A stretch of DNA of 64,000 nt from Patescibacteria group bacterium. Its GTDB lineage: Bacteria > Patescibacteriota > Gracilibacteria > UBA4473. The position numbers and the translations under genes were made by a program. Below, piece by piece: positions 1,012-58,666 of the stretch. The number at the start of each line of letters is the position of its first letter. The first letter of the stretch is position 1. The DNA lies in NCBI GenBank assembly GCA_965660445.1, contig CBFIAK010000001.1:256001-320000 (forward strand), given 5' to 3'. The notes under the pieces are model-generated. The model was not told where the DNA came from. It made no database searches and saw only the letters and a program-made list of their open reading frames with translations.

Positions 1012-1111
1012 GTAAGTTTTGCCTCTTTTTCCTATTTTCTGTTTTTTGGGTTTTGAAAAACAAAAATTATTTTTTGAATTTTTCGAGAACGTTCCATACA
1101 ATAAACTCATC

Positions 1112-2626
1112 ATGAATAAAGTTCACCTTATTGTGCTCGATGGTGTGGGGTATGGAAAAAAAGATGCAGGAGATGCTTTTTTTCATGCTCATACTCCTTA
1201 TATTGATTCGTTATTATCTCAACATCCAAATACGACACTCAAAACATATGGTGCTTCTGTGGGCTTGCCTGAGTTTCAAACTGGGGGGTCTGAGGTAGGG
1301 CATATAACCCTTGGTGCAGGGCGTCCAGTAAAACACTTGCTTACGAAAATAAATGATCAAATTGAGTCTGGAGAATTTTTTACAAACCCTGTTCTTGTAC
1401 AATTACATGAAAAAGCAGCAAAACTCGGACGCATTCATTATATGGGGTTGTTGTCTGATGGTGGTATTCATAGTTTTCAGCCTCATTTGTACGGACTTTT
1501 GAAAATGGCTCAGTCGTATGGAATTGAGCAAGTGTTTATCCATGGCGCGCTTGATGGGCGAGATGTAGGGGAACGCACCGCTCGTGAGTTTCTTCGTGAA
1601 CTCGATACCAAAAATGGAACAATTGCGTCTCTCTGTGGACGATTTTATATGATGGATCGAGACCAAAACTGGGACAGAATTGAAAAATCGTATGCGGTTC
1701 TGACCGGAAAAACACCATCAACGAGCTCTGATTGGCAGTCTTATCTTGATGATTATTATGCTCATCACACAGAATCCGATTATTATGCGCAACCAGTGTT
1801 ATTACAGAAAGAAGGAGCGATGAGACCTGATGATGTATTGATTAATTTCAATTTTCGAACCGATAGAATGCGTCAAATTTCAAGTGCTTTATGTGATGAT
1901 GAGTTTTCTCTGTTTCAAAGAGATATACAAATAAACCCAAATAATTACGGAGTGTTTGGAAGCTATTATGAAGGAGCACATGTAGTATTTGCATTAGGGG
2001 GCGCGCAATCGATTCAAAACACTTTTGGCGCCGTCATAGAGCATTACAAAAAAACACAGTTGAGAATCACAGAGACAGAAAAGTTTAATCATGTTACGTT
2101 CTTTTTTTCTGGTGAACGAAAAGAAAAGTTCGAAGGTGAAGACAGAATTCTTCTTCCGTCTCCAAAATGCCCGAGTTATGCAGAAAAACCAGAGATGTCA
2201 GCACATGCTCAAACAGAAGCACTCTTAGAATCTATTGAACATCATGCTTATGATGCCGTTATTCAAAATTATGCGAATGGTGATTTAGTGGGACATTCGG
2301 GGAGTTTTAAAGCAGCTGTTCGTGCTGTTGAAGTAGTGGATGAGTGTTTATCGAAAGTTGTCCCGTTTATGAAAGAAAAAGGATACGATATTCTTATTTT
2401 AGCTGATCATGGAAACTGTGACCAAATGTTATATGAAAACGGAGAAGTCTGCGCTTCACACACAAAAAATCCGGTGCCATGTATACTCATTTCTGATCGA
2501 TATGCGTCTCACCATATGCGAGATGGTGGCACATTAGCCGATGTAGCGCCTACGTTACTCACCTTGCTTGGGTTGCCAATTCCAGACGAAATGACGGGGT
2601 CATCACTGATTATTGATTCTGAATGA
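1112..2626 (+). CDS. gpmI: 2,3-bisphosphoglycerate-independent phosphoglycerate mutase
   Basis: LIVLDG, GSEVGH, LLSDGGIHS, DGRD, GRFY.MDRD, FNFRTDR, ETEK..HVTFFF, DLVGHSG, ADHGN motifs; start set at ATG 1112. Confidence 0.97.
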   Translation: MNKVHLIVLDGVGYGKKDAGDAFFHAHTPYIDSLLSQHPNTTLKTYGASVGLPEFQTGGSEVGHITLGAGRPVKHLLTKINDQIESGEFFTNPVLVQLHEKAAKLGRIHYMGLLSDGGIHSFQPHLYGLLKMAQSYGIEQVFIHGALDGRDVGERTAREFLRELDTKNGTIASLCGRFYMMDRDQNWDRIEKSYAVLTGKTPSTSSDWQSYLDDYYAHHTESDYYAQPVLLQKEGAMRPDDVLINFNFRTDRMRQISSALCDDEFSLFQRDIQINPNNYGVFGSYYEGAHVVFALGGAQSIQNTFGAVIEHYKKTQLRITETEKFNHVTFFFSGERKEKFEGEDRILLPSPKCPSYAEKPEMSAHAQTEALLESIEHHAYDAVIQNYANGDLVGHSGSFKAAVRAVEVVDECLSKVVPFMKEKGYDILILADHGNCDQMLYENGEVCASHTKNPVPCILISDRYASHHMRDGGTLADVAPTLLTLLGLPIPDEMTGSSLIIDSE

Positions 2627-7002: not shown

Positions 7003-7087
7003 TGTTTCTTTGGGTGTTTCCTTGTTCTATACACTTGCTTTTTCTCTTCATTCAGCTATACTATAAAGATTTGATATTCTTTGTATT

Positions 7088-7969
7088 ATGCAGGTGATTC
7101 CAGATATAGAAATAGTTTTACAAGAAGCTTTACAGCCATTTTATAGCAGTGATTTACTCGCACGATCTTTTTTAAGAATAGGATTGCCTCGCTATATTGC
7201 CTATAAAATAGCACACAATATTTGGGAAACGTTAGATAATGAAGGGAAAGATGAACAAAAACTCTACAATAGGGCTTGTTCTCTTGTAAAAAAGGATTAT
7301 CCGACATTATTACCAGCGTATAAAAAATGGGCACGAATAATGAAACAAAAGAAACCGTTTATTATTTTAGTTGCAGGTGGAACAGGAATTGGCACTTCAA
7401 CATTAGCGGTTCGATTGGCATGGCTTATGGAAATTAATCATATTGTTTCAACCGATTCAGTTCGTGAAATAGTGCGGAGATTTTTGCCAGCTAAAATAGC
7501 ACCTGCATTAAGTGTTTCTACTTATCAAACCGCGACAATGGTGAAAGGGGTTCGATCTTCGAAAGATGCGCTTATTTTTGGGTTTCTTTCTCAGTCTCAA
7601 AAGGTTCTTTATGGAATAGAATCAGTTATTCAAAGATCGATCAAGGAACAAGAAGATATTATTATAGAAGGTATTCATTTAGTGCCAGGAGAAATGGATT
7701 TTATAAAAAAATATAAGAAAAAAGCTCATATTATTGAAATTATGCTTGATGTGCATAAGGAGAATGATCATAAACAACATTTTTTAACTCGTCATCTACA
7801 AAATGCAAACCGAATACAAAAACGATATTTAAATCATTTTAAAGAAATTAGAATTATTCAAAATTTTTTAGTACAAAGGGCTCATGTCAATAATATTTGT
7901 GTTATTGAGAACTATAACTTAAAAAAAGTAGAAAAAAAGATACTTGATCATATCTATTCACAATTATGA
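7088..7969 (+). CDS. pgk2: 2-phosphoglycerate kinase (archaeal type)
   Basis: ATP-cone-like N-terminus (PFYSSDLLARSF), PFIILVAGGTGIGTST P-loop, STDSVREIVR, IEGIHLVP, H...F..R, RYL.HF.EIR.IQ; ATGA overlap with cpgS. Confidence 0.85.
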   Translation: MQVIPDIEIVLQEALQPFYSSDLLARSFLRIGLPRYIAYKIAHNIWETLDNEGKDEQKLYNRACSLVKKDYPTLLPAYKKWARIMKQKKPFIILVAGGTGIGTSTLAVRLAWLMEINHIVSTDSVREIVRRFLPAKIAPALSVSTYQTATMVKGVRSSKDALIFGFLSQSQKVLYGIESVIQRSIKEQEDIIIEGIHLVPGEMDFIKKYKKKAHIIEIMLDVHKENDHKQHFLTRHLQNANRIQKRYLNHFKEIRIIQNFLVQRAHVNNICVIENYNLKKVEKKILDHIYSQL

Positions 7970-9321
7970 GTCTTAAATTAAAAAAATCTATCGCTTGTTT
8001 GGTAGATGGCGAACATTATTTACCAAACACAAAAGCCACACTCGAAACTCTTTCTCAAGAATATGATATACAATATATTATCTTTATTGGAGGCACGGAA
8101 AAGATTGGAAATACAGAAGATATACAAGCTGGGTTTACGTATCCTGTTTATTTTGCTTATACATCTCATGGGCCAGATGTAAATATAATGAAAGGGATTC
8201 TAGAGTCGCATAAAGTGGATATGGTCTTTGATCTTTCAGATGAACCAGTTGTCAATTATAAAAAAAGATTTGAAATGGCTTGTGTTATTCTTTTTTGTGG
8301 AATGATCTACAAAGGGTCTGATTTTGAGTTTTTACCCCTTCAATTTGATGAGATTCTCACAAAACCTTCACTTGCTATTTGGGGAACAGGAAAGCGTATT
8401 GGGAAAACAGCCTTTGGAGGATTCGTTGGTCGTCTCCTCAAAAATAGAAACAAAAAACCAGCAATTGTTACATTGAGTCGAGGCGGTCCTCCTGAGCCAA
8501 TGTTAGTAAGAGGTGATGAAATAAATATTGATGTAGATTATCTTCTTTCTATTCATAAACAAGGATTGCATGCATCATCTGATTGCTTTGAAGATGCATT
8601 GATGGCAAGAATACCAACGTTTGGATGTCGGCGTTGTGGTGGCGGTATGACCGGTAAGGCCGTTATTTCTTTCGCCCAAACAGGCGCAATGATGGCAGAA
8701 GAGTCCTCATTTGTGGAGACGGTTATTCTTGAAGGAAGTGGAGCCAGTATACCAGAAATTAAAACAGATGGAGTTATCCTCCTTATGGATATAACACAAT
8801 CAACAGAAATATTAGAGTCTTACTTGACCCCTCTGAAAATACTATATGCCGATATAGTTGTATTAACAATGTGTGAAGATTTCTTCGTGTCTGATCGAAA
8901 GATTGATCGTATTATACGACATATTAAACGTATAAATAAGAAAGTTCGTATAGCCACAACTGTATTAAGACCGCTTCCATTGAAATCAATAAAAGGAAAA
9001 AAAGTGTTTTGGGCAACAACGGCACCCTCACACGTTGTTTCTTTTTTGAAACACTATATAGAAGATGTTTATGAGTGTTCTGTGGTAGCATCGAGCTCGC
9101 ATTTGTCTCATCAAGAAAAACTGAGAAAAGATATGCAGAACAGTCATGAGTTTGAATGTGTCCTCACAGAGTTAAAAGCAAGTGCTGTATCTGTCGTTGC
9201 AAAAGAAGTAGAAAACAAAGAAATTGTTTTTCTTGATAATGAGTTCCATATTGTTGATAGGGGTGGTGATATTAAAGATTTGGAATCAGCTATAGTGAAC
9301 TGTCTAGAGAAAAAAGCATAA
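7966..9321 (+). CDS. cpgS: Cyclic 2,3-diphosphoglycerate synthetase
   Basis: LVDGEHYLP, GGTEKI, DLSDEPVV, GTGKRIGKTA, RGGPPEP, HASSD.FEDA, GCRRCGGG, EGSGASIP, ELKA motifs. Confidence 0.9.
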   Translation: MSLKLKKSIACLVDGEHYLPNTKATLETLSQEYDIQYIIFIGGTEKIGNTEDIQAGFTYPVYFAYTSHGPDVNIMKGILESHKVDMVFDLSDEPVVNYKKRFEMACVILFCGMIYKGSDFEFLPLQFDEILTKPSLAIWGTGKRIGKTAFGGFVGRLLKNRNKKPAIVTLSRGGPPEPMLVRGDEINIDVDYLLSIHKQGLHASSDCFEDALMARIPTFGCRRCGGGMTGKAVISFAQTGAMMAEESSFVETVILEGSGASIPEIKTDGVILLMDITQSTEILESYLTPLKILYADIVVLTMCEDFFVSDRKIDRIIRHIKRINKKVRIATTVLRPLPLKSIKGKKVFWATTAPSHVVSFLKHYIEDVYECSVVASSSHLSHQEKLRKDMQNSHEFECVLTELKASAVSVVAKEVENKEIVFLDNEFHIVDRGGDIKDLESAIVNCLEKKA

Positions 9322-10998: not shown

Positions 10999-12510
10999 TT
11001 ATATGCGAAGAAGATCGAGTATTTGTTTATCAGGAATGTATTTTTGAAAGTCGTCTTTATAGGGATCTTCGTGTGATTCTATTTCTTTTGTCATACCAAA
11101 ATCAATGAGATAGACATCATCAATGTTATCATCTTCATCAAATATGAACATTACATTTCTATTATGAAGATCTCGGTGGTGAATATTGTTTTGGTGTAAA
11201 AGATGAAGCGTGTTTTCTATTTTTTGACGAACATGTTCAGGAATTGAAATGTTGTGTTTCTTGCATATGTTCTTGAGTCTTTGAAAATTCCGTTTTCGAG
11301 TCTCCATGACGGCTTCTTCGGGACTATACTGTGTGTAATCAGGAGTCTCCCATTCAAGGATCCCAATCTCTTCAGATTTTTGTTTAAGTTTTTCAAAGTT
11401 ATCCTTTTCTCCATCAGTGTAGACATCAACGTTATGAGCTTCTAAGAGTTTTCGCAAAAGATAGGTATAAGAATCTTCCCCATCAATATAATCCATCGTA
11501 AAAAAGAAGACGTCTTCTCCTGAAACAAGACCTTCGTCTTCTAATTGGTTTTTGAGTATATGATTTTCATTATGAAAAAGACTCTGCATATACGCTGTAG
11601 GAACTTGAGCGTATTCTGATTTGTTAGGAATGCTTTCAAGAAGAGATTGTATTTTTTGTTGTGCTTGAAATTCTTGGTTCCCAATAGCTTCATTATACAC
11701 TTTTAGGAGTTTTACGGCTTGTTTTTCATGGGGATCAATTCCTCCAAAAAAAGCATCGATGAGGTTTTGAATGTGTTCAGAATATTCTTGAGTATCAATA
11801 TTATTTTTCTGACAATAGTTTCCTATTTGAGAAAATAGAAAGTCTGGAGTAATGGTTTTGATAATCCCATATTCGCCTTCATTTATTTTTTTTGAGGCGA
11901 TCAGAAGTATCTCATAAAAGGCAAATTTAAGATCACGAATTATTTCAATTTCATGAATATGTAAGACTTCTTTCTCAGGATTATGAAACTCTTGGATTAC
12001 TTCTGGCGTATTGCTTTGGCATTTTCTGAGAACACTGTGGGCATATTTTTGTTCATCTTCGCTTAAATCATGAAATGATGCAGAAAGATATATGAGGTGT
12101 GTGTGTATGGCTTGCTGTATAAAAGGAATGCTTTTTTTGTTTTTTTCAAGGATTGTGTGAAACGTTTCCCATATTGTATCAGATTCAAATAATCCTCGAA
12201 AGAGAGACATGTATGCTTTTGGCATGGGAATATCTTCTTCAAGAATAGATAAAAAAAGTTCTTGGTGTAGGTGAAATGGTGTTTCTATGATAAAGGCAAT
12301 AAGATCCTCTTTTATGAATTTTTTTTCATCTTCACGGTGATCAATGAGCTCAAAAAAATCATTCATTATTTGGATATCGCTTTTCCGTGTGAGGACGTTG
12401 AGAACATTTTCTTGCACTGTTTTTTGGTATCGGGCAATAACGTGATCGTGTTCAGCTTTTTCAATAGGAGGAATCGATTGAGAGAGTTTGGGAGAAATAT
12501 GCAAAGACAT
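10999..12510 (-). CDS. Protein with C-terminal protein-kinase-like domain
   Basis: EGEYGII, AVKLLKVY, MDYIDG, HHRDLHNRNVM catalytic loop, YLIDFG. Confidence 0.75.
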   Translation of the reverse strand: MSLHISPKLSQSIPPIEKAEHDHVIARYQKTVQENVLNVLTRKSDIQIMNDFFELIDHREDEKKFIKEDLIAFIIETPFHLHQELFLSILEEDIPMPKAYMSLFRGLFESDTIWETFHTILEKNKKSIPFIQQAIHTHLIYLSASFHDLSEDEQKYAHSVLRKCQSNTPEVIQEFHNPEKEVLHIHEIEIIRDLKFAFYEILLIASKKINEGEYGIIKTITPDFLFSQIGNYCQKNNIDTQEYSEHIQNLIDAFFGGIDPHEKQAVKLLKVYNEAIGNQEFQAQQKIQSLLESIPNKSEYAQVPTAYMQSLFHNENHILKNQLEDEGLVSGEDVFFFTMDYIDGEDSYTYLLRKLLEAHNVDVYTDGEKDNFEKLKQKSEEIGILEWETPDYTQYSPEEAVMETRKRNFQRLKNICKKHNISIPEHVRQKIENTLHLLHQNNIHHRDLHNRNVMFIFDEDDNIDDVYLIDFGMTKEIESHEDPYKDDFQKYIPDKQILDLLRI

Positions 12511-14315: not shown

Positions 14316-17238
<2,923 letters not shown>

Positions 17239-17350
17239 TATCAGTTTTTGTTTATCTCTTAGGTGGGTAAACTTCAAAAAATAGATGTACGCGGTATAAT
17301 ACAATGAATTTTCTTTTTTCCGATTATCAGAACGAATATTAAAAAAGTTC

Positions 17351-17469
17351 TGTGTTGACATCTGTAGCGAAAGGGGTACACCTGATCCCATTCCGAACTC
17401 AGAAGTTAAGTCTTTCAGCGCCGATGATACTTAGGGATAGCCTTGGGAAAGTAGGTCGATGTCAACACA
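17351..17469 (+). rRNA. rrf: 5S rRNA
   Basis: CACCTGATCCCATTCCGAACTCAGAAGTTAAG...CGCCGATGATAC...GAAAGTAGG; terminal stem TGTGTTGACATC/GATGTCAACACA. Confidence 0.95.
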
Positions 17470-53895: not shown

Positions 53896-54470
53896 AACAC
53901 TTGGTAGCTGGTATTGATGAAGCAGGAAGAGGAGCCCTTGCTGGTCCAGTGGTTGCAGCTGCGGTTATTGTGCCTGATGATTTTGATTGTACTCTTTTGA
54001 AAGATTCGAAAGTATTGAGTCCTCGAATTCGATCAGAGGTATGTGCTTTAATTATGGCTCATTGTATGTATGGAGTCGGTATGGTGTCAGCAAAAGATGT
54101 TGATCGACTGGGTATAAAAAAAGCAACCCATGCGGCTATGAAGAAAGCACTCCATACACTTCCATCTGTTCCTCAAGAACTCTGGATTGATGGAAATGAT
54201 GGGTTTGTATTCTCAATTCCATCTTCTGATTTTGTAAGGGGAGATGTTTTGTATCCTTGTATATCAGCAGCTTCAATTATTGCAAAAACAGTAAGAGATC
54301 AGTATATGTATGAAATTGCTGAGTCGTACCCGAAGTTTCAGTTTGATTCTCATAAAGGATATGGCACAGAATTTCATAGAAACCTTCTTGAAAAAGGGGA
54401 ATATACCCCTTTTCATCGTAAAACATATCAACCCTTAAAACAAGTGCTTACCCAAGGAAAACTGTTTTAG
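53892..54470 (+). CDS. rnhB: Ribonuclease HII
   Basis: AGIDEAGRGALAGPV, DSK, IDG, SAASIIAK..RD, KGYGT..H, HR. Confidence 0.96.
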   Translation: MKHLVAGIDEAGRGALAGPVVAAAVIVPDDFDCTLLKDSKVLSPRIRSEVCALIMAHCMYGVGMVSAKDVDRLGIKKATHAAMKKALHTLPSVPQELWIDGNDGFVFSIPSSDFVRGDVLYPCISAASIIAKTVRDQYMYEIAESYPKFQFDSHKGYGTEFHRNLLEKGEYTPFHRKTYQPLKQVLTQGKLF

Positions 54471-57400
54471 AGTTTGTTCTTTTGGAGAGAAATAATAATA
54501 GGTTCTCCATCAATCAAAACAGTATCATCATGCATATTATCATCAATAGCATCACTCTTGATAATGTTTTCAGCGAGTACTTCTTGTCCGATGAGAGATG
54601 AAAATTGATGAAAACATTCTTGTAGAAGTTTTGATTGTGTGTGATAAGTGAGAGTAATACGATCAGACAAATCAAAGTTTTGTGTTTTTCGGGTGTCTTG
54701 AATGTATCGAATGAGTTCTCGAGCAAGTCCTTCAAGCAGTAAATCATGTGTAATATCCGTATCAAGGATCACGACCATGTTTTGATAACTATCAGCTTCT
54801 ATCCCTTCTGAGCAGACAAACCCTATCTCGTATTCGTTTGGTTGAATAATTTCACCTTCTATAAGGAGGGACCCATCTTTTTGCATTTCAAATCGTCCTT
54901 CTTTTCCTGCTTGAAGTATGGCTTGTACTTTTTTTCCAAGTCGAGGCCCAGCCGTTTTTGCTTGAATCCGAACAATTCGTTCAGCAATTCCTTGAAGAGA
55001 AGTAAGCGTTTCAACTTTTTTGACGTTCGCTTCTTCTGCAATAATATGAAAATCAAGCTGAATGTCTTCCGTTACTAAAAACCGAAGCCGTGATAAAGGT
55101 TGTCGAAGCTTTATTTTTTTACGAGCGCGTATACTCGCAGCTAAACGCACAATATCACGAGTGATATTGGTCTTTTTTTCAATGTCAGGTTTCATTGCTT
55201 TTTTTATAGGAATGGGAAAAGAATCTAAATGAACAGAGTCGCCTCCACCTAAATCTCGATAGAGCTGTTCGGCTAAAAATGGACATACGGGGGCCAGTAT
55301 TTTTGAAAGAGAAAGTAATACCCAATGAAGTGTTTCGTATCCAGATTGTTTGTCCTCATTCATACCAGACGCCCAAAATCGTCTTCGAGATCGTCGTAAG
55401 TGCCAGTTGTTGAGTTTATCAATGAATTCAGGAATGTGTTTGAGTGCGGATTCTAATTTATACGCGTCAAAATGAGTGCGAAATTGGTCAATAACGTATT
55501 GAAGCTCCGATAAAATCCAGATATCAAGTTCGTTTTTTGGGGTCGGAAACGGAAAGAGTACCGTGTAATCCCCTGTGGAAAGTTTTGGAAATCGAAGAAT
55601 TTCTTCATGAGAACTGATGCCATGTATATGGGACTGTAAACACCGAATCGGAGCAAGATGAGAAACTATAGCAACCGTTTGTCCATGATGTTTTTTCTGA
55701 ATGTCAGCCCAAAATGAGGCCATTCTGTCTTGAATATGAGACAATTGTTCAGTATCGGCATGAAGAATGCAATCATGTGCTGATATAAATGGTTTTCCTT
55801 CAAGTGACCCAAATGACATTTCCGATAATCGATTGTCTTCGTGTAGATCGCATTTTTGTACTTCGCTCAAGAGTTTCGCTGTTTCTTTTGCTCGCTCAAA
55901 TGGGGATGTGTAGATGTTGTCTATAGATGCATGACTCAGTGTGCGAGCAAGTTCTTTTGCTTCTTTTATCCCTGATTCAGTAAGTGCGGATGATGTGTGA
56001 ATATCTCCGTTGTAAATACCAGTTGTATTATGTTGAGCTTCAGCATGTCTTATAGCAAAAATACGTGTTGGCTTCCATTCATCAAGGTTTGCGTATGTTG
56101 AGAAAAACTGATACGTCGATTTCAATGGCAGAATCACAGATTTTAAAACTTCAGCAACACCATATTCTGAAAATCGAAGGTTTTCACCTCGTGCAACAGG
56201 AGAGTTTAATAAATAAAACCGCATTGCATCAGCTCCGTATTTGTTAAATATATGTGACGGGTCAGGATAATTTTTCTTAGATTTCGACATCTTGCTTCCG
56301 TCTTCCGCTTGAATGATTCCGTTTGTAATAACATTTTTATAAATATTTTTTCCAAACAAGGCGACGCCTAACACGTGAAGGTTATAAAACCAACATCGTG
56401 TTTGATCTAACCCTTCCGCAATAAAGTCAGCCGCAGGAAAAACCGATTGAAGTTCATAAGGCGTGGCATTTTGAATTTTATTTTCCCATGGACCAGCAGG
56501 ACGGTTTTCGTTCCAGCTTTGTATCAACTGAATTGGATGCCCGTGTGACACAATAAGAATATTTTTTCCTTCGTATCGATTATTAATATCACGAATGCAA
56601 TCGGATACTCGTTTTTCACAATCAGCAATACTTTCTCCTTGGGGAAAAGGTTTATCTATAATGTTATGACTATCAATATACGCATGGCCTTCCTCTGATG
56701 GTTTGTCATCAAAGATTCCAAAATGAACCTCTTGAAGTCGTTCGTCTTCAATAATTTCTGCTCCTGATATTTCAGCAAATAGGTGGGCTGTCTCACGAGT
56801 ACGACGGAAAGGAGACGTGAAAATAATATCAATATCTTTGTAGCGATCTCGAATATCAAGTACACTTTTTCGTCCCTTTGAAGTAATACCATATTTTTCG
56901 GCAGACTGTGTGGTGCACGAAAGAATTTCTTGTACATTGTTTTCTGCTTGTGCGTGTCGAATGACTACAAATCGGTTCTTAAAAAACCGATGATGTGGCT
57001 CAAATGGGTAATGTTGTGACGCATATGGCATAGACCCTGATTCAAACCAACAATCAAGAACTTCTGGAATACGTCGCATAGTACCTCCCGTTTCAGGGTG
57101 TGTCCATGTGAGATCATCTATAAAGTGACGATGGAGATCAGAAACAGGTTTACCGCTCAAGCGTTCAAGTTCGGCTTTACTGCCAATGACTTGGCATACG
57201 CCGGTTTTATCACATTTCCAGACAGGAATAGGAGTTCCCCAGTATCGGTTTCGAGAAATAGCCCAATCAGGAGCACTTTCGAGACCTTTTCCAAATCGAC
57301 CGTGTTTTAGATAATCAGGTATCCAGTGAATGTTTTCATTCATATCTATTAAATCAGCCTTGATGGACTGAATATCAACAAACCATGTTTTGATACCCGT

Positions 57401-58666
57401 ATACATAAGAGCACATTCAGTTCTCCAACAATGAGGATAAGAATGTCGTATTTGTGCTCTATGGAATAAGGAATGATTTTCTTTTACATATTGAATAACC
57501 CATTCGTTTGCATTATCGGTTGTGTGCTCACCAACTTCTCTATCAAATCGGAAATATTTTCCAGAGAGCTCCTTGATTGTGTCATCAAAATATCCGTTCT
57601 GATCAATTGGAGAAACGAGTGGTGCAATATCGTTTTCTTGGCATACTCGAGCATCGTCTTCCCCGAAGTTTGGAGCTAGATGAACGATTCCAGTTCCGTC
57701 AGTATCGGAAACAAAATCTCCTTTGATAACACGAAAAGCGTTCTTATGGTTTTTAAAAAACGGAAAAAGAGGTGTATAAGCCGTTCCTATCAACGATGCT
57801 CCATCAATTTTACGTTGAATATCAATGGGGTCTTTGAATATCTTTTCAAGAAGGTTTTCTGCTACAATATAAGAGAGTCCATCAATAGGTTTTGTTTGGA
57901 CGTATTGAATATCCGGATGAACTCCAAGCGCAAGATTTGAAGGTAGTGTCCATGGAGTAGTAGTCCATGCTAAAAAGAAAACAGAGACGTCTTCCCCAAG
58001 TGAGACTCGTTTATCAGTGGTTTTAAATTTAACAGTCAATGTTGGGTCATCAATGTCTTTGTAATTGAGACCGGCTTCAAAGTTCGAAAGAGGACTCCCA
58101 AGCTTTGGAGAATAAGCTACCACTTTTTCACCTTCATAAATAAGTCCTTTGTTCCATAACTGATGAAAAACCCACCAAACAGATTCCATGAATTTTGGAT
58201 CCATGGTTTTGTAATCGTCTTGAAAATCAACAAAACGCCCCATGCGCTCAACGGTGTCTTCCCATTGGTCTCTGCAGCGAAGTACTACAGAACGACATAG
58301 TTCATTAAAATTCCCAATCCCCATAGCTTCTATGCCGGGTTTTCCTCCGATTTGGTGTTCTTTTTCGACCTGAAATTCTACGGGGACTCCGTGACAATCC
58401 CAACCCCATTTTCGTTCTACGCGGTATCCTCTCATGGTTTTGTATCGAGGAATGGCGTCTTTCAAGGCTCCAGCAAGAATATGTCCGTAATGCGGTGTTC
58501 CAGTAGCAAACGGTGGGCCATCAAAGAATACAAAGGGGTTTTGTGTTGATCGAGATGAAATAGATCGTTTAAAAATGGAATGATCTCTCCAATAAGAGAG
58601 AATTTTTTCTTCTGACTGAGCAACGGTTTCTTTGGTTTGTGAACTGGGAAAAAAAGGAGTCATCAT
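54467..58666 (-). CDS. ileS: Isoleucyl-tRNA synthetase type 2 with two inserted histidine-phosphatase domains
   Basis: DGPPFATGTPHYGH, GWDCHG, WTTTPWTLPSN, DW.ISR.RYWG, EGLDQTR.WF, KMSKS; insertions start with RHAQA and RHAEA. Confidence 0.95.
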   Translation of the reverse strand: MMTPFFPSSQTKETVAQSEEKILSYWRDHSIFKRSISSRSTQNPFVFFDGPPFATGTPHYGHILAGALKDAIPRYKTMRGYRVERKWGWDCHGVPVEFQVEKEHQIGGKPGIEAMGIGNFNELCRSVVLRCRDQWEDTVERMGRFVDFQDDYKTMDPKFMESVWWVFHQLWNKGLIYEGEKVVAYSPKLGSPLSNFEAGLNYKDIDDPTLTVKFKTTDKRVSLGEDVSVFFLAWTTTPWTLPSNLALGVHPDIQYVQTKPIDGLSYIVAENLLEKIFKDPIDIQRKIDGASLIGTAYTPLFPFFKNHKNAFRVIKGDFVSDTDGTGIVHLAPNFGEDDARVCQENDIAPLVSPIDQNGYFDDTIKELSGKYFRFDREVGEHTTDNANEWVIQYVKENHSLFHRAQIRHSYPHCWRTECALMYTGIKTWFVDIQSIKADLIDMNENIHWIPDYLKHGRFGKGLESAPDWAISRNRYWGTPIPVWKCDKTGVCQVIGSKAELERLSGKPVSDLHRHFIDDLTWTHPETGGTMRRIPEVLDCWFESGSMPYASQHYPFEPHHRFFKNRFVVIRHAQAENNVQEILSCTTQSAEKYGITSKGRKSVLDIRDRYKDIDIIFTSPFRRTRETAHLFAEISGAEIIEDERLQEVHFGIFDDKPSEEGHAYIDSHNIIDKPFPQGESIADCEKRVSDCIRDINNRYEGKNILIVSHGHPIQLIQSWNENRPAGPWENKIQNATPYELQSVFPAADFIAEGLDQTRCWFYNLHVLGVALFGKNIYKNVITNGIIQAEDGSKMSKSKKNYPDPSHIFNKYGADAMRFYLLNSPVARGENLRFSEYGVAEVLKSVILPLKSTYQFFSTYANLDEWKPTRIFAIRHAEAQHNTTGIYNGDIHTSSALTESGIKEAKELARTLSHASIDNIYTSPFERAKETAKLLSEVQKCDLHEDNRLSEMSFGSLEGKPFISAHDCILHADTEQLSHIQDRMASFWADIQKKHHGQTVAIVSHLAPIRCLQSHIHGISSHEEILRFPKLSTGDYTVLFPFPTPKNELDIWILSELQYVIDQFRTHFDAYKLESALKHIPEFIDKLNNWHLRRSRRRFWASGMNEDKQSGYETLHWVLLSLSKILAPVCPFLAEQLYRDLGGGDSVHLDSFPIPIKKAMKPDIEKKTNITRDIVRLAASIRARKKIKLRQPLSRLRFLVTEDIQLDFHIIAEEANVKKVETLTSLQGIAERIVRIQAKTAGPRLGKKVQAILQAGKEGRFEMQKDGSLLIEGEIIQPNEYEIGFVCSEGIEADSYQNMVVILDTDITHDLLLEGLARELIRYIQDTRKTQNFDLSDRITLTYHTQSKLLQECFHQFSSLIGQEVLAENIIKSDAIDDNMHDDTVLIDGEPIIISLQKNKL

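What the first reader, a model, noticed from the sequence alone, without database searches (positions are those of the whole stretch)
7088..9321. Complete archaeal-type cyclic 2,3-diphosphoglycerate (cDPG) pathway in a CPR-like bacterium
Seen: a translationally coupled (ATGA overlap) 2-phosphoglycerate kinase and a cDPG synthetase carrying DGEHY, GKRIGKT and GCRRCGGG motifs. gpmI, which makes the 2-PG substrate, lies ~5 kb upstream. Known: 2-PG -> 2,3-DPG -> cDPG is the extremolyte/phosphate-energy store pathway characterised in methanogens such as Methanothermus fervidus. Inference: a reduced, host-dependent bacterium spending 2 ATP per molecule on it suggests horizontal acquisition, possibly from an archaeal partner, and a role as stress protectant or energy store. 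The kinase P-loop has T rather than K (GIGTST).
Basis: partly seen in the sequence, partly recalled or inferred. Interest (0 to 1): 0.8.

Follow-up and report, generated by a model that had tools for sequence, protein, structure and literature searches.

The report
Archaeal cDPG-synthesis operon in CPR bacterium
A tiny, host-dependent-type bacterium carries an intact two-gene operon for making cyclic 2,3-diphosphoglycerate, a solute so far reported only from heat-loving methanogenic archaea, and it most likely got the genes from archaea long ago.

Summary
Window 7088-7969 (+) encodes a 2-phosphoglycerate kinase (2PGK) family protein. Window 7966-9321 (+) encodes a full-length cyclic 2,3-diphosphoglycerate synthetase (CPGS), E 1.8e-105 to the solved Methanothermus fervidus enzyme. 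All 11 published ligand residues that I could place are kept. The genes overlap by ATGA.

The genome is 0.99 Mb, bacterial and mesophile-like. Its family-mates carry record titles 'Candidatus Gracilibacteria'.

The cassette is rare: 7 of 401 sampled genomes of its class and 1 of 401 (the window's own genome) in the phylum sample. The CPR copies form one clade (support 100/100) inside a clade with Hydrothermarchaeota, Altiarchaeales and Methanosarcinales sequences, next to Methanobacteriaceae. That fits an old archaea-to-CPR transfer.

2PGK is directly upstream of CPGS in 7 of 7 CPR genomes and in 0 of 74 archaeal loci.

The nearby gpmI is not conserved next to the cassette.

An archaeal partner as donor, and the physiological role, remain untested. 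The genome has lower glycolysis, and no polyphosphate kinase was found. I found no paper linking cDPG to CPR bacteria, though databases already auto-annotate such homologues.

Verdict: new member of a known kind, moderate interest.

The parts
7088..7969 (+). 2-phosphoglycerate kinase family gene (P0001, 293 aa). It has a diverged N-terminal helical domain of about 85 residues and a P-loop NMP-kinase-like domain with Walker A GGTGIGTST.
   Evidence: ORF. NF003259 E 4.5e-71, 239.7 bits, cut-off 343. Only 2PGK-family match in the genome. AlphaFold model pLDDT 88; residues from about 88 to 293 resemble UMP/CMP and adenylate kinases. P-loop T is the family norm.
7966..9321 (+). Cyclic 2,3-diphosphoglycerate synthetase gene (P0002, 451 aa).
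   Evidence: PDB 8ork E 1.8e-105, aligned over 7-445 of 451 against 5-447 of 460. The counterparts of M. fervidus E45, K46, K145, R146, K149, T150, D208, E305, T353, E404 and K406 are E45, K46, K143, R144, K147, T148, D206, E304, T352, E402 and K404. Ten are invariant and E304 is at least 90% conserved in 24 CPR and archaeal sequences.
7966..7969 (+). ATGA stop/start overlap of the two genes (translational coupling inferred).
   Evidence: Sequence printed. In the other six CPR loci the two ORFs also overlap or lie about 22 nt or less apart (coordinates).
7003..7087 (+). 85-bp A+T-rich spacer between thrS and the cassette. The promoter was not identified.
   Evidence: Sequence. The consensus scan found no excess of promoter-like sites (11 found against 10.9 expected) and none in this spacer.
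1019..2626 (+). gpmI, cofactor-independent phosphoglycerate mutase. It supplies 2-PG. It is context only and not part of the cassette.
   Evidence: Pfam Metalloenzyme plus iPGM_N. It is not next to the cassette in the other CPR loci.

Best explanation
This is a two-gene operon for the archaeal-type synthesis of cyclic 2,3-diphosphoglycerate (cDPG). The 2PGK homologue phosphorylates glycolytic 2-phosphoglycerate to 2,3-DPG with ATP. The CPGS homologue then uses a second ATP to close the intramolecular phosphoanhydride, giving cDPG plus ADP plus Pi. The cassette entered a Peregrinibacteria/Gracilibacteria-type CPR lineage from archaea long ago. It was packed into an operon, then either spread among or was lost from most relatives, and it is kept intact in a few species, including this 0.99-Mb, mesophile-like genome. 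Shown: homology, intact catalytic residues, operon structure, rarity, position in the tree, and presence of lower glycolysis. Inferred: enzyme activities, direction of transfer, and the physiological role. I take the role to be an anionic compatible solute and/or phosphate reserve rather than a thermoprotectant.
For: CPGS: full-length match to the crystallised M. fervidus enzyme. All 11 ligand or charge-shielding residues that I could place from PMC10690619 section 8 are conserved; a twelfth named residue, P335, did not fit my count of the chain. 2PGK: NF003259 is the best family by far. 43 columns are invariant between five CPR and four archaeal 2PGKs. The P-loop is the same type as in 105 of 105 archaeal-type hits, including Methanothermobacter. 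Linkage: 2PGK lies directly upstream of CPGS in 7 of 7 CPR genomes and is the only gene family shared by all seven loci besides CPGS. Substrate supply: GAPDH, PGK, gpmI, enolase and pyruvate kinase are present in G000. Not an assembly artefact: the cassette lies on the 828-kb contig C1, 85 bp after thrS and 5 kb before a bacterial 23S rRNA. Its GC is 31.6% and 36.4% against 36.6% for the genome. Horizontal origin: CPGS was found in 7 of 401 class genomes and in 1 of 401 (G000 only) in the phylum sample. Only 6 CPR-titled records are among the best 80 of 238 CPGS-encoding species genomes. The CPR clade has support 100/100 and sits inside a 100/99 clade with Hydrothermarchaeota, Altiarchaeales and Methanosarcinales sequences, next to Methanobacteriaceae. 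Mesophily: 23S GC is 48.6% and the IVYWREL fraction is 0.389. No PPK1 or PPK2 was found in a genome scored 100% complete.
Against: The 2PGK scores 103 bits under NCBI's equivalog cut-off. It sits on a very long stem (1.52 changes per site), and its place among the archaeal 2PGKs is unresolved. Its N-terminal domain is no longer recognised as an ATP-cone by Pfam in 3 of 3 CPR proteins tested, whereas a Methanothermobacter 2PGK gives E 2.9e-16. The trees are unrooted. A group holding a Spirochaetota-labelled protein lies in the same clade, so the immediate donor could have been bacterial. No expression data exist: no RNA holder is listed. No cDPG-degrading enzyme is known that could be sought. 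The role is pure inference.
Confidence: 0.72

Rival explanations
1. The enzymology is the same, but the origin is vertical. The cassette was present in the common ancestor of the class (or of CPR) and was lost in almost all descendants, so there was no transfer from archaea.
For: The CPR copies are monophyletic. The AU test does not reject keeping the four genomes of family f1 together (p 0.076). GC and GC3 are at or below the host's values, which gives no sign of a recent arrival.
Against: It needs very many losses: the cassette was not found in 394 of 401 class genomes or in 400 of 401 genomes of the phylum sample. Presence differs within genera: g16 1 of 3, g20 1 of 2, g19 1 of 3. Two complete or 100%-scored g16 genomes show no remnant at the homologous place. 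Flanks are unrelated in the seven loci. The clade is bracketed by archaeal lineages.
Confidence: 0.12
2. The pair makes something other than cDPG. The kinase may have drifted to another substrate, as the related mevalonate-3-phosphate 5-kinases did. Or the useful product may be 2,3-DPG itself.
For: The 2PGK is below the equivalog cut-off and also matches the sister models NF008994, NF008995 and NF008996. It has a long stem branch. The ATP-cone signal is lost.
Against: NF003259 beats NF008996 by 160 bits. CPGS keeps every 2,3-DPG and ATP ligand residue that I could place. The two genes are never apart in the 7 CPR genomes. The genome's phosphoglycerate mutase is the cofactor-independent type, so 2,3-DPG is not needed as a cofactor for it.
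Confidence: 0.1
3. The cassette serves to consume cDPG taken from a methanogen host, by running the pathway backwards to gain ATP and 2-PG.
For: Some Patescibacteria parasitise methanogens (search listing and abstract starts only: PMC10936435, PMC12281837). Methanobacteriales, which hold CPGS, accumulate cDPG (PMC10690619, passages).
Against: The CPGS reaction releases Pi and is described as highly exergonic (PMC10690619 section 8). The reaction was fitted as irreversible and ran to complete conversion (PMC12136491, passages). Making ATP from the phosphoester of 2,3-DPG is unfavourable (my own knowledge). The only run holding this DNA is labelled marine plankton. No transporter is linked to the cassette.
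Confidence: 0.04
4. This is an artefact: an archaeal fragment mis-assembled or mis-binned into a bacterial genome.
For: Both families are chiefly archaeal.
Against: The cassette is embedded in an 828-kb contig between a bacterial thrS and lgt, 5 kb from a bacterial 23S rRNA. Its GC is host-like. The same cassette occurs in six other CPR genomes from four differently titled MAG series.
Confidence: 0.02

Closest known systems
Cyclic 2,3-diphosphoglycerate synthetase of Methanothermus fervidus (PDB 8ORK/8ORU; PMC10690619)
   Same: Same length and architecture: an N-terminal dimerisation domain plus an atypical P-loop kinase domain. The alignment is end to end, E 1.8e-105. Walker A is GTGKRIGKT. 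The Mg ligands T and D, the trans-subunit E and K, and the ATP-binding E, T, E and K are all conserved.
   Different: About 45% identity only. The host is a mesophile-like bacterium rather than a hyperthermophilic methanogen. The gene lies in an operon with 2PGK, whereas the two genes are unlinked in 74 of 74 archaeal loci and about 0.5 Mb apart in two complete Methanobacteriaceae genomes.
Archaeal 2-phosphoglycerate kinase (NCBIfam NF003259; Methanothermobacter and Methanobacterium proteins named so by NCBI)
   Same: It aligns over profile positions 11-291 of 306. The Walker A is G-x-x-G-x-G-T-S with T in place of the usual K. The motifs TD..RE..R, EG.H.PG, H..F..R and F..IR are shared.
   Different: 30-34% identity. 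The score is below the equivalog cut-off. The N-terminal ATP-cone is not detectable by Pfam. The stem branch is very long.
CPGS and 2PGK homologues auto-annotated in Ca. Peregrinibacteria and Ca. Gracilibacteria MAGs (for example the records behind L004-L009)
   Same: Same clade, 55-60% identical. Same gene order and tight spacing.
   Different: The window's CPGS is an early, separate branch, together with P0021, and not with the other three genomes of its own family. Its flanks are different.
NMP kinases (UMP/CMP kinase 5UKD/1UKE, adenylate kinases)
   Same: They are the nearest solved folds to the 2PGK model (Foldseek E 1e-5, TM 0.64-0.68 on the target length).
   Different: 12-16% identity. 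They have a classical Walker A lysine and lack the N-terminal domain. No 2PGK structure is solved.

Membership tests
Cyclic 2,3-diphosphoglycerate synthetase (CPGS/cDPGS) | Full-length sequence homology to the biochemically and structurally characterised M. fervidus enzyme | tested here: met
   phmmer against PDB: 8ork E 1.8e-105, 8oru 2e-105, 9sxb 1e-98; query 7-445 of 451.
Cyclic 2,3-diphosphoglycerate synthetase (CPGS/cDPGS) | Walker A GxxGxGK[T/S] carrying the substrate-binding K145/R146 and the Mg ligand T150 | tested here: met
   GTGKRIGKT at residues 140-148. K143, R144, K147 and T148 are invariant in 24 sequences.
Cyclic 2,3-diphosphoglycerate synthetase (CPGS/cDPGS) | Second Mg ligand D208, trans-subunit E45/K46, and ATP contacts E305, T353, E404, K406 | tested here: met
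   D206, E45, K46, T352, E402 and K404 are invariant. E304 is at least 90% conserved. The paper's P335 did not fit my count of the chain. Both prolines of the local RP.P motif are kept.
Cyclic 2,3-diphosphoglycerate synthetase (CPGS/cDPGS) | Curated family model hit (Pfam PF27272) | tested here: inconclusive
   PF27272.1 is the precomputed label of P0002 and of nearly all listed relatives. The local Pfam and NCBIfam copies returned no family.
Cyclic 2,3-diphosphoglycerate synthetase (CPGS/cDPGS) | ATP-dependent conversion of 2,3-DPG to cDPG | not testable with these tools
   Needs an enzyme assay.
2-phosphoglycerate kinase (NF003259) | Score at or above the curated equivalog cut-off (343 bits) | tested here: not met
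   239.7 bits, E 4.5e-71; 240.9 bits in the genome search. Four of five archaeal genomes with CPGS pass the cut-off.
2-phosphoglycerate kinase (NF003259) | Best-matching family, aligned over nearly the whole profile | tested here: met
   Profile positions 11-291 of 306. The next models score 186.7, 152.7 and 79.3 bits.
2-phosphoglycerate kinase (NF003259) | Family-typical Walker A G-x-x-G-x-G-T-[ST] (T in place of K) | tested here: met
   GGTGIGTST. 105 of 105 archaeal-type hits have ...G[VI]GTS. 37 of 38 CPR-clade proteins have T there, and the 38th is a fragment without the region.
2-phosphoglycerate kinase (NF003259) | N-terminal ATP-cone domain | tested here: inconclusive
   Pfam ATP-cone was not found at E up to 10 in 3 of 3 CPR proteins. 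It was found in Methanothermobacter P0312 (2.9e-16) and weakly in the Hydrothermarchaeota protein (3.2e-4). The region still aligns (PF.S..LARS motif) and is modelled as four helices, with residues 1-19 at low confidence.
2-phosphoglycerate kinase (NF003259) | Co-occurrence with CPGS in the same genome | tested here: met
   Adjacent in 7 of 7 CPR genomes. Present elsewhere in the genome in 5 of 5 archaeal CPGS carriers.
2-phosphoglycerate kinase (NF003259) | ATP-dependent phosphorylation of 2-PG to 2,3-DPG | not testable with these tools
   Needs an enzyme assay.

The most novel reading that the evidence does not exclude
Mesophilic CPR bacteria really make cDPG. It would serve them as their main phosphate and charge reserve (or anionic osmolyte) in place of polyphosphate, which this genome appears unable to make. 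The compact 2PGK-cpgS cassette would move laterally among CPR lineages. That would end the view that cDPG is an exclusive, thermoadaptive trait of hyperthermophilic methanogens, and it would give the first defined storage or solute compound for CPR cells.
Probability: 0.3. Interest if true: 0.65.

Novelty: new member of a known kind. Interest (0 to 1): 0.5.

Why it matters
The papers I read state that cDPG is found exclusively in (hyper)thermophilic methanogens and treat it as a thermoprotectant (PMC10690619, PMC12136491; passages). Here the complete, intact and operon-organised pathway sits in a mesophile-like, 1-Mb bacterium of the candidate phyla radiation, and in about 27 related metagenomic protein clusters.

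This suggests the compound has a role unrelated to heat. An earlier paper raised the same point for mesophilic class I methanogens (PMC2686161, passage). It also gives a rare, directly testable metabolic trait for CPR bacteria: two small genes that can be expressed in E. coli and assayed.

It is also a clean example of inter-domain gene flow into CPR, followed by operon formation. It could supply mesophilic enzymes for the biotechnological production of cDPG that the cited groups pursue.

Tried and rejected
- **T-for-K as a defect:** rejected. It is the norm for the family.
- **Pseudogene remnant in G015:** the weak hit (E 1.6e-4) is spurious. tblastn with four queries found nothing better than E 0.85, and the profile search found no match.
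- **Clean insertion site:** not obtained. thrS neighbourhoods are not conserved in the 29 same-family loci fetched. In genus g16 the homologous place in two genomes without the cassette shows no remnant, but the G220 contig begins at the cassette, so only one flank can be compared.
- **Transfer within CPR:** not shown. The window's CPGS does not group with the other f1 genomes, yet the AU test does not reject their union (p 0.076). I also named that group after seeing the tree.
- **Donor from the 2PGK tree:** unresolved polytomy and a long-branch warning.
- **Promoter and terminator scan:** no excess of promoter-like sites; 4 terminator-like sites against 1.6 expected, none directly after the operon.
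- **Expression:** no RNA holder is listed. One DNA run holds the stretch and may be its source.
- **First genome-contig scan:** the single-protein query found nothing. The alignment query worked.
- **Fold search of the 2PGK model:** it gave only generic NMP kinases and says nothing on substrate.
- **Backward (catabolic) use of the pathway:** rejected on thermodynamic grounds.
- **Supplements:** supplementary files of papers were closed and not requested. Tables S2/S3 of PMC7554672 and the supplementary figures of PMC10690619 may hold distribution or alignment data that I did not see.
- **Literature searches:** 'diphosphoglycerate' with Peregrinibacteria (0 papers), with Patescibacteria (3 papers; one passage read concerns gpmA only, and the other two were judged irrelevant from title and abstract start), with candidate phyla radiation (0) and with Gracilibacteria (0). 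'cDPG' as a whole word from 2015 gave 55 papers, of which 40 were listed, and no listed title concerns bacteria making cDPG. Papers outside the library were not searched.
Full report
**1. What is there**

The window holds two same-strand ORFs, 7088-7969 (293 aa, P0001) and 7966-9321 (451 aa, P0002). Their stop and start share ATGA: window 7961-7975 reads CAATTATGAGTCTTA.

P0002 aligns end to end with the crystallised cyclic 2,3-diphosphoglycerate synthetase of Methanothermus fervidus. The match to 8ork is E 1.8e-105, query 7-445 against chain 5-447. Two further CPGS entries, 8oru and 9sxb, follow.

Section 8 of PMC10690619 (read whole) names the ligand and charge-shielding residues. E45 and K46 come from the partner subunit. 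K145, R146, K149 and T150 lie in the Walker A loop. D208 binds Mg. E305, T353, E404 and K406 contact ATP. Counting along the alignment, these are E45, K46, K143, R144, K147, T148, D206, E304, T352, E402 and K404 in P0002. In an alignment of 24 CPR and archaeal homologues, ten are invariant and E304 is at least 90% conserved. The paper's P335 did not fit my count, but both prolines of the local RP.P motif are kept.

The local Pfam and NCBIfam copies have no model for this family. The precomputed label is PF27272.

**2. The kinase**

P0001's best family is NCBIfam NF003259, 2-phosphoglycerate kinase. The match is E 4.5e-71 and 239.7 bits over profile positions 11-291 of 306. This is under the curated equivalog cut-off of 343 bits. 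The sister models score 186.7, 152.7 and 79.3 bits. It is the only such gene in the genome. No relative has a solved structure.

An AlphaFold model built on 31 sequences is confident (pLDDT 88, pTM 0.85). It shows four N-terminal helices followed by a P-loop domain. The nearest solved folds are UMP/CMP and adenylate kinases.

I tested this in three ways.
- The 2PGKs of five archaeal genomes that carry CPGS all read G-x-S-G-x-G-T-[ST]. Four of those five score above the cut-off.
- 105 of 105 archaeal-type hits, among them proteins named 2PGK from Methanothermobacter marburgensis and M. thermautotrophicus, read GG[ASV]SG[VI]GTS.
- 37 of 38 CPR-clade proteins have T there. The 38th is a fragment lacking the region.

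Only distant, long ATP-cone-fused forms have K. So the T is a family trait and not a defect.

What does differ is the N-terminal domain. Pfam's ATP-cone is found in a Methanothermobacter 2PGK (E 2.9e-16) and weakly in a Hydrothermarchaeota one (3.2e-4). It is not found at E up to 10 in 3 of 3 CPR proteins. The region still aligns, with a shared PF.S..LARS motif.

**3. The host**

The window carries a bacterial 23S rRNA (2686.7 bits) and a 5S rRNA, with no 16S beside them. It also carries thrS, lgt, ribosomal protein L16 and other bacterial genes.

The genome (G000) is 991,330 bases in 5 contigs and is scored 100% complete. TGA ends 62 of the 483 ORFs of at least 250 aa, so the standard code is in use.

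Six unnamed relatives that carry the cassette are identical, over 2,000-base test stretches, to public records. The three in G000's own family are titled Candidatus Gracilibacteria. The three in two other families of the class are titled Candidatus Peregrinibacteria. So 'CPR-like bacterium' is right.

The 23S GC (48.6%) and the proteome's IVYWREL fraction (0.389) point to a mesophile. That fraction gives about 30 degrees C by a formula that I recall from Zeldovich and colleagues and that no call verified. The one public run holding the stretch, which may be its source, is labelled marine plankton metagenome.

**4. Distribution**

- A word-indexed search found 27 protein clusters at 52-60% identity to P0002. 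The named ones are from Peregrinibacteria, Gracilibacteria or 'Patescibacteria group'. After them come a Methanosarcinales-labelled protein (51%), other proteins at 44-50%, a Spirochaetota-labelled one (46%), and a large block of Methanobacteriales at 42-46%.
- For P0001 there are 37 clusters at 49-61%. Fourteen of them share their 'longest contig' length with a CPGS cluster.
- In species-representative genomes, 238 of 262 pattern matches encode a CPGS relative. Among the best 80 are 6 CPR-titled records, one Hydrothermarchaeota (49%), one Altiarchaeales (47%) and 72 with methanogen or Euryarchaeota titles.
- Profile searches of sampled genomes found CPGS in 7 of 401 genomes of the class. Without G000 that is 3 of 42 in its own family, 2 of 31 in family f10 and 1 in f34.
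- In a 401-genome sample of the phylum, only G000 had it.
- Presence varies inside genera: g16 1 of 3, g20 1 of 2, g19 1 of 3.
- G000's closest relatives by ThrRS (67-71% identical) had no CPGS match in the class search.
- An exhaustive HMMER pass over 50%-identity representatives counts 675 clusters at E up to 0.001 and 140 at up to 1e-30.

**5. Operon structure**

The 2PGK gene lies immediately upstream of cpgS in all 7 CPR genomes. None of the 74 archaeal loci, fetched with up to 8 kb on each side, has a 2PGK match. In two complete Methanobacteriaceae genomes the two genes are about 0.5 Mb apart.

Among the seven CPR loci, the two genes are the only families shared by all. Spacing ranges from a 14-nt overlap to about 22 nt. 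gpmI is therefore a chance neighbour here.

At the homologous place in two g16 genomes without the cassette there is no remnant. The weak hit in G015 is spurious.

**6. Phylogeny**

*CPGS, 105-row quick tree.* The CPR sequences form one clade of 20 rows (SH-aLRT 100). This clade sits in a 38-row clade (99) with a Hydrothermarchaeota/Methanosarcinales/Altiarchaeales group and the group containing the Spirochaetota-labelled protein. That clade is next to Methanobacteriales (92).

*CPGS, 27-row careful tree.* The result is the same: CPR 100/100, the wider clade 100/99, and Methanobacteriaceae outside.

The trees are unrooted. The outgroup rows were chosen by me and are unnamed. The taxa of the deep representatives could not be obtained.

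The window's protein branches early, with P0021, apart from the other three genomes of its family. An AU test does not reject uniting them (p 0.076), and I chose that group after seeing the tree.

*2PGK tree.* The CPR clade is again single (99) but sits on a stem of 1.52 changes per site. Its place among the archaeal sequences is unresolved.

GC is 31.6% for 2PGK and 36.4% for CPGS, against 36.6% for the genome. Any transfer is therefore old.

**7. Metabolic setting**

G000 encodes GAPDH, PGK, gpmI, enolase and pyruvate kinase. So 2-PG is a normal intermediate.

RuBisCO, PPK1 and PPK2 were not found. The only histidine-phosphatase domains lie inside very large frames. One of these frames is the IleRS in the window.

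**8. Mechanism and role**

The pathway costs two ATP per cDPG. The second step releases Pi and is strongly exergonic (PMC10690619 section 8). It runs to completion in vitro (PMC12136491 passages).

The papers call cDPG exclusive to hyperthermophilic methanogens. They also mention a proposed phosphate and energy storage role (PMC10690619 passages). [quoted passage not shown] CPGS is also discussed for thermophilic ammonia oxidisers (PMC7554672 passages).

For a mesophile-like cell in which no polyphosphate kinase was found, I favour a role as an anionic solute and/or phosphate reserve. This is inference.

**9. Novelty**

Databases already auto-name these proteins in CPR MAGs. My literature searches found no paper that links cDPG synthesis with CPR bacteria. 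The library is limited to open-access papers and preprints, and supplements were closed.

I file it as a new member of a known kind: the known archaeal pathway in a new, unexpected lineage. Three features are its own: the operon arrangement, a diverged kinase N-terminus and a mesophilic setting.

**10. Verdict**

- Observation: confirmed.
- Interpretation: partly supported.
- Confidence in the cDPG-operon reading: 0.72.
- Interest: 0.5.

Noticed in passing
window 54467-58666 (-): A 1399-aa isoleucyl-tRNA synthetase (TIGR00392 861.5 bits) carries two histidine-phosphatase (His_Phos_1) domains, at about residues 565-715 and 868-1020. They are inserted between the catalytic core and the anticodon-binding domain. 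Their best matches are alpha-ribazole phosphatase and dPGM-like models. This is an unusual fusion of unknown meaning.
   Followed up: partly
G000:C1:179679-180104 (-), outside the window: A third His_Phos_1 domain lies inside another very long open frame of 1043 aa. It may be a second enzyme with such an insertion.
   Followed up: no
window 14317-17467 (+): The 23S and 5S rRNA genes stand without a 16S gene next to them. The upstream neighbours are protein genes on the other strand.
   Followed up: no
window 10999-12510 (-): A 503-aa protein has only a weak, partial protein-kinase match at its C-terminus (Pkinase 29.8 bits, below the cut-off) and a faint DUF7826 repeat.
   Followed up: no
P0122 (protein): The closest relative of the window's 2PGK (59% identical, sister at SH-aLRT 97) comes from a 4.5-kb contig labelled Candidatus Beckwithbacteria. 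The cassette may therefore also occur in another CPR class, or the short contig may be mis-binned.
   Followed up: no
P0040-P0045 (proteins): A distinct CPGS group of 6 proteins, 450-481 aa long, includes one labelled Spirochaetota. It lies in the same well-supported clade as the CPR and Hydrothermarchaeota/Altiarchaeales sequences. Other bacteria may also carry the enzyme. Their gene neighbourhoods were not seen.
   Followed up: no
PDB 9sxb: A third solved CPGS (436 aa, E 1e-98 to P0002) exists besides the two M. fervidus entries. Its source organism is not given by the tool.
   Followed up: no
L103 and G019: Two genomes of genus g20 differ strongly in ThrRS identity to the window: G296 71%, G019 55%. 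This hints at thrS replacement or paralogy in this family.
   Followed up: no
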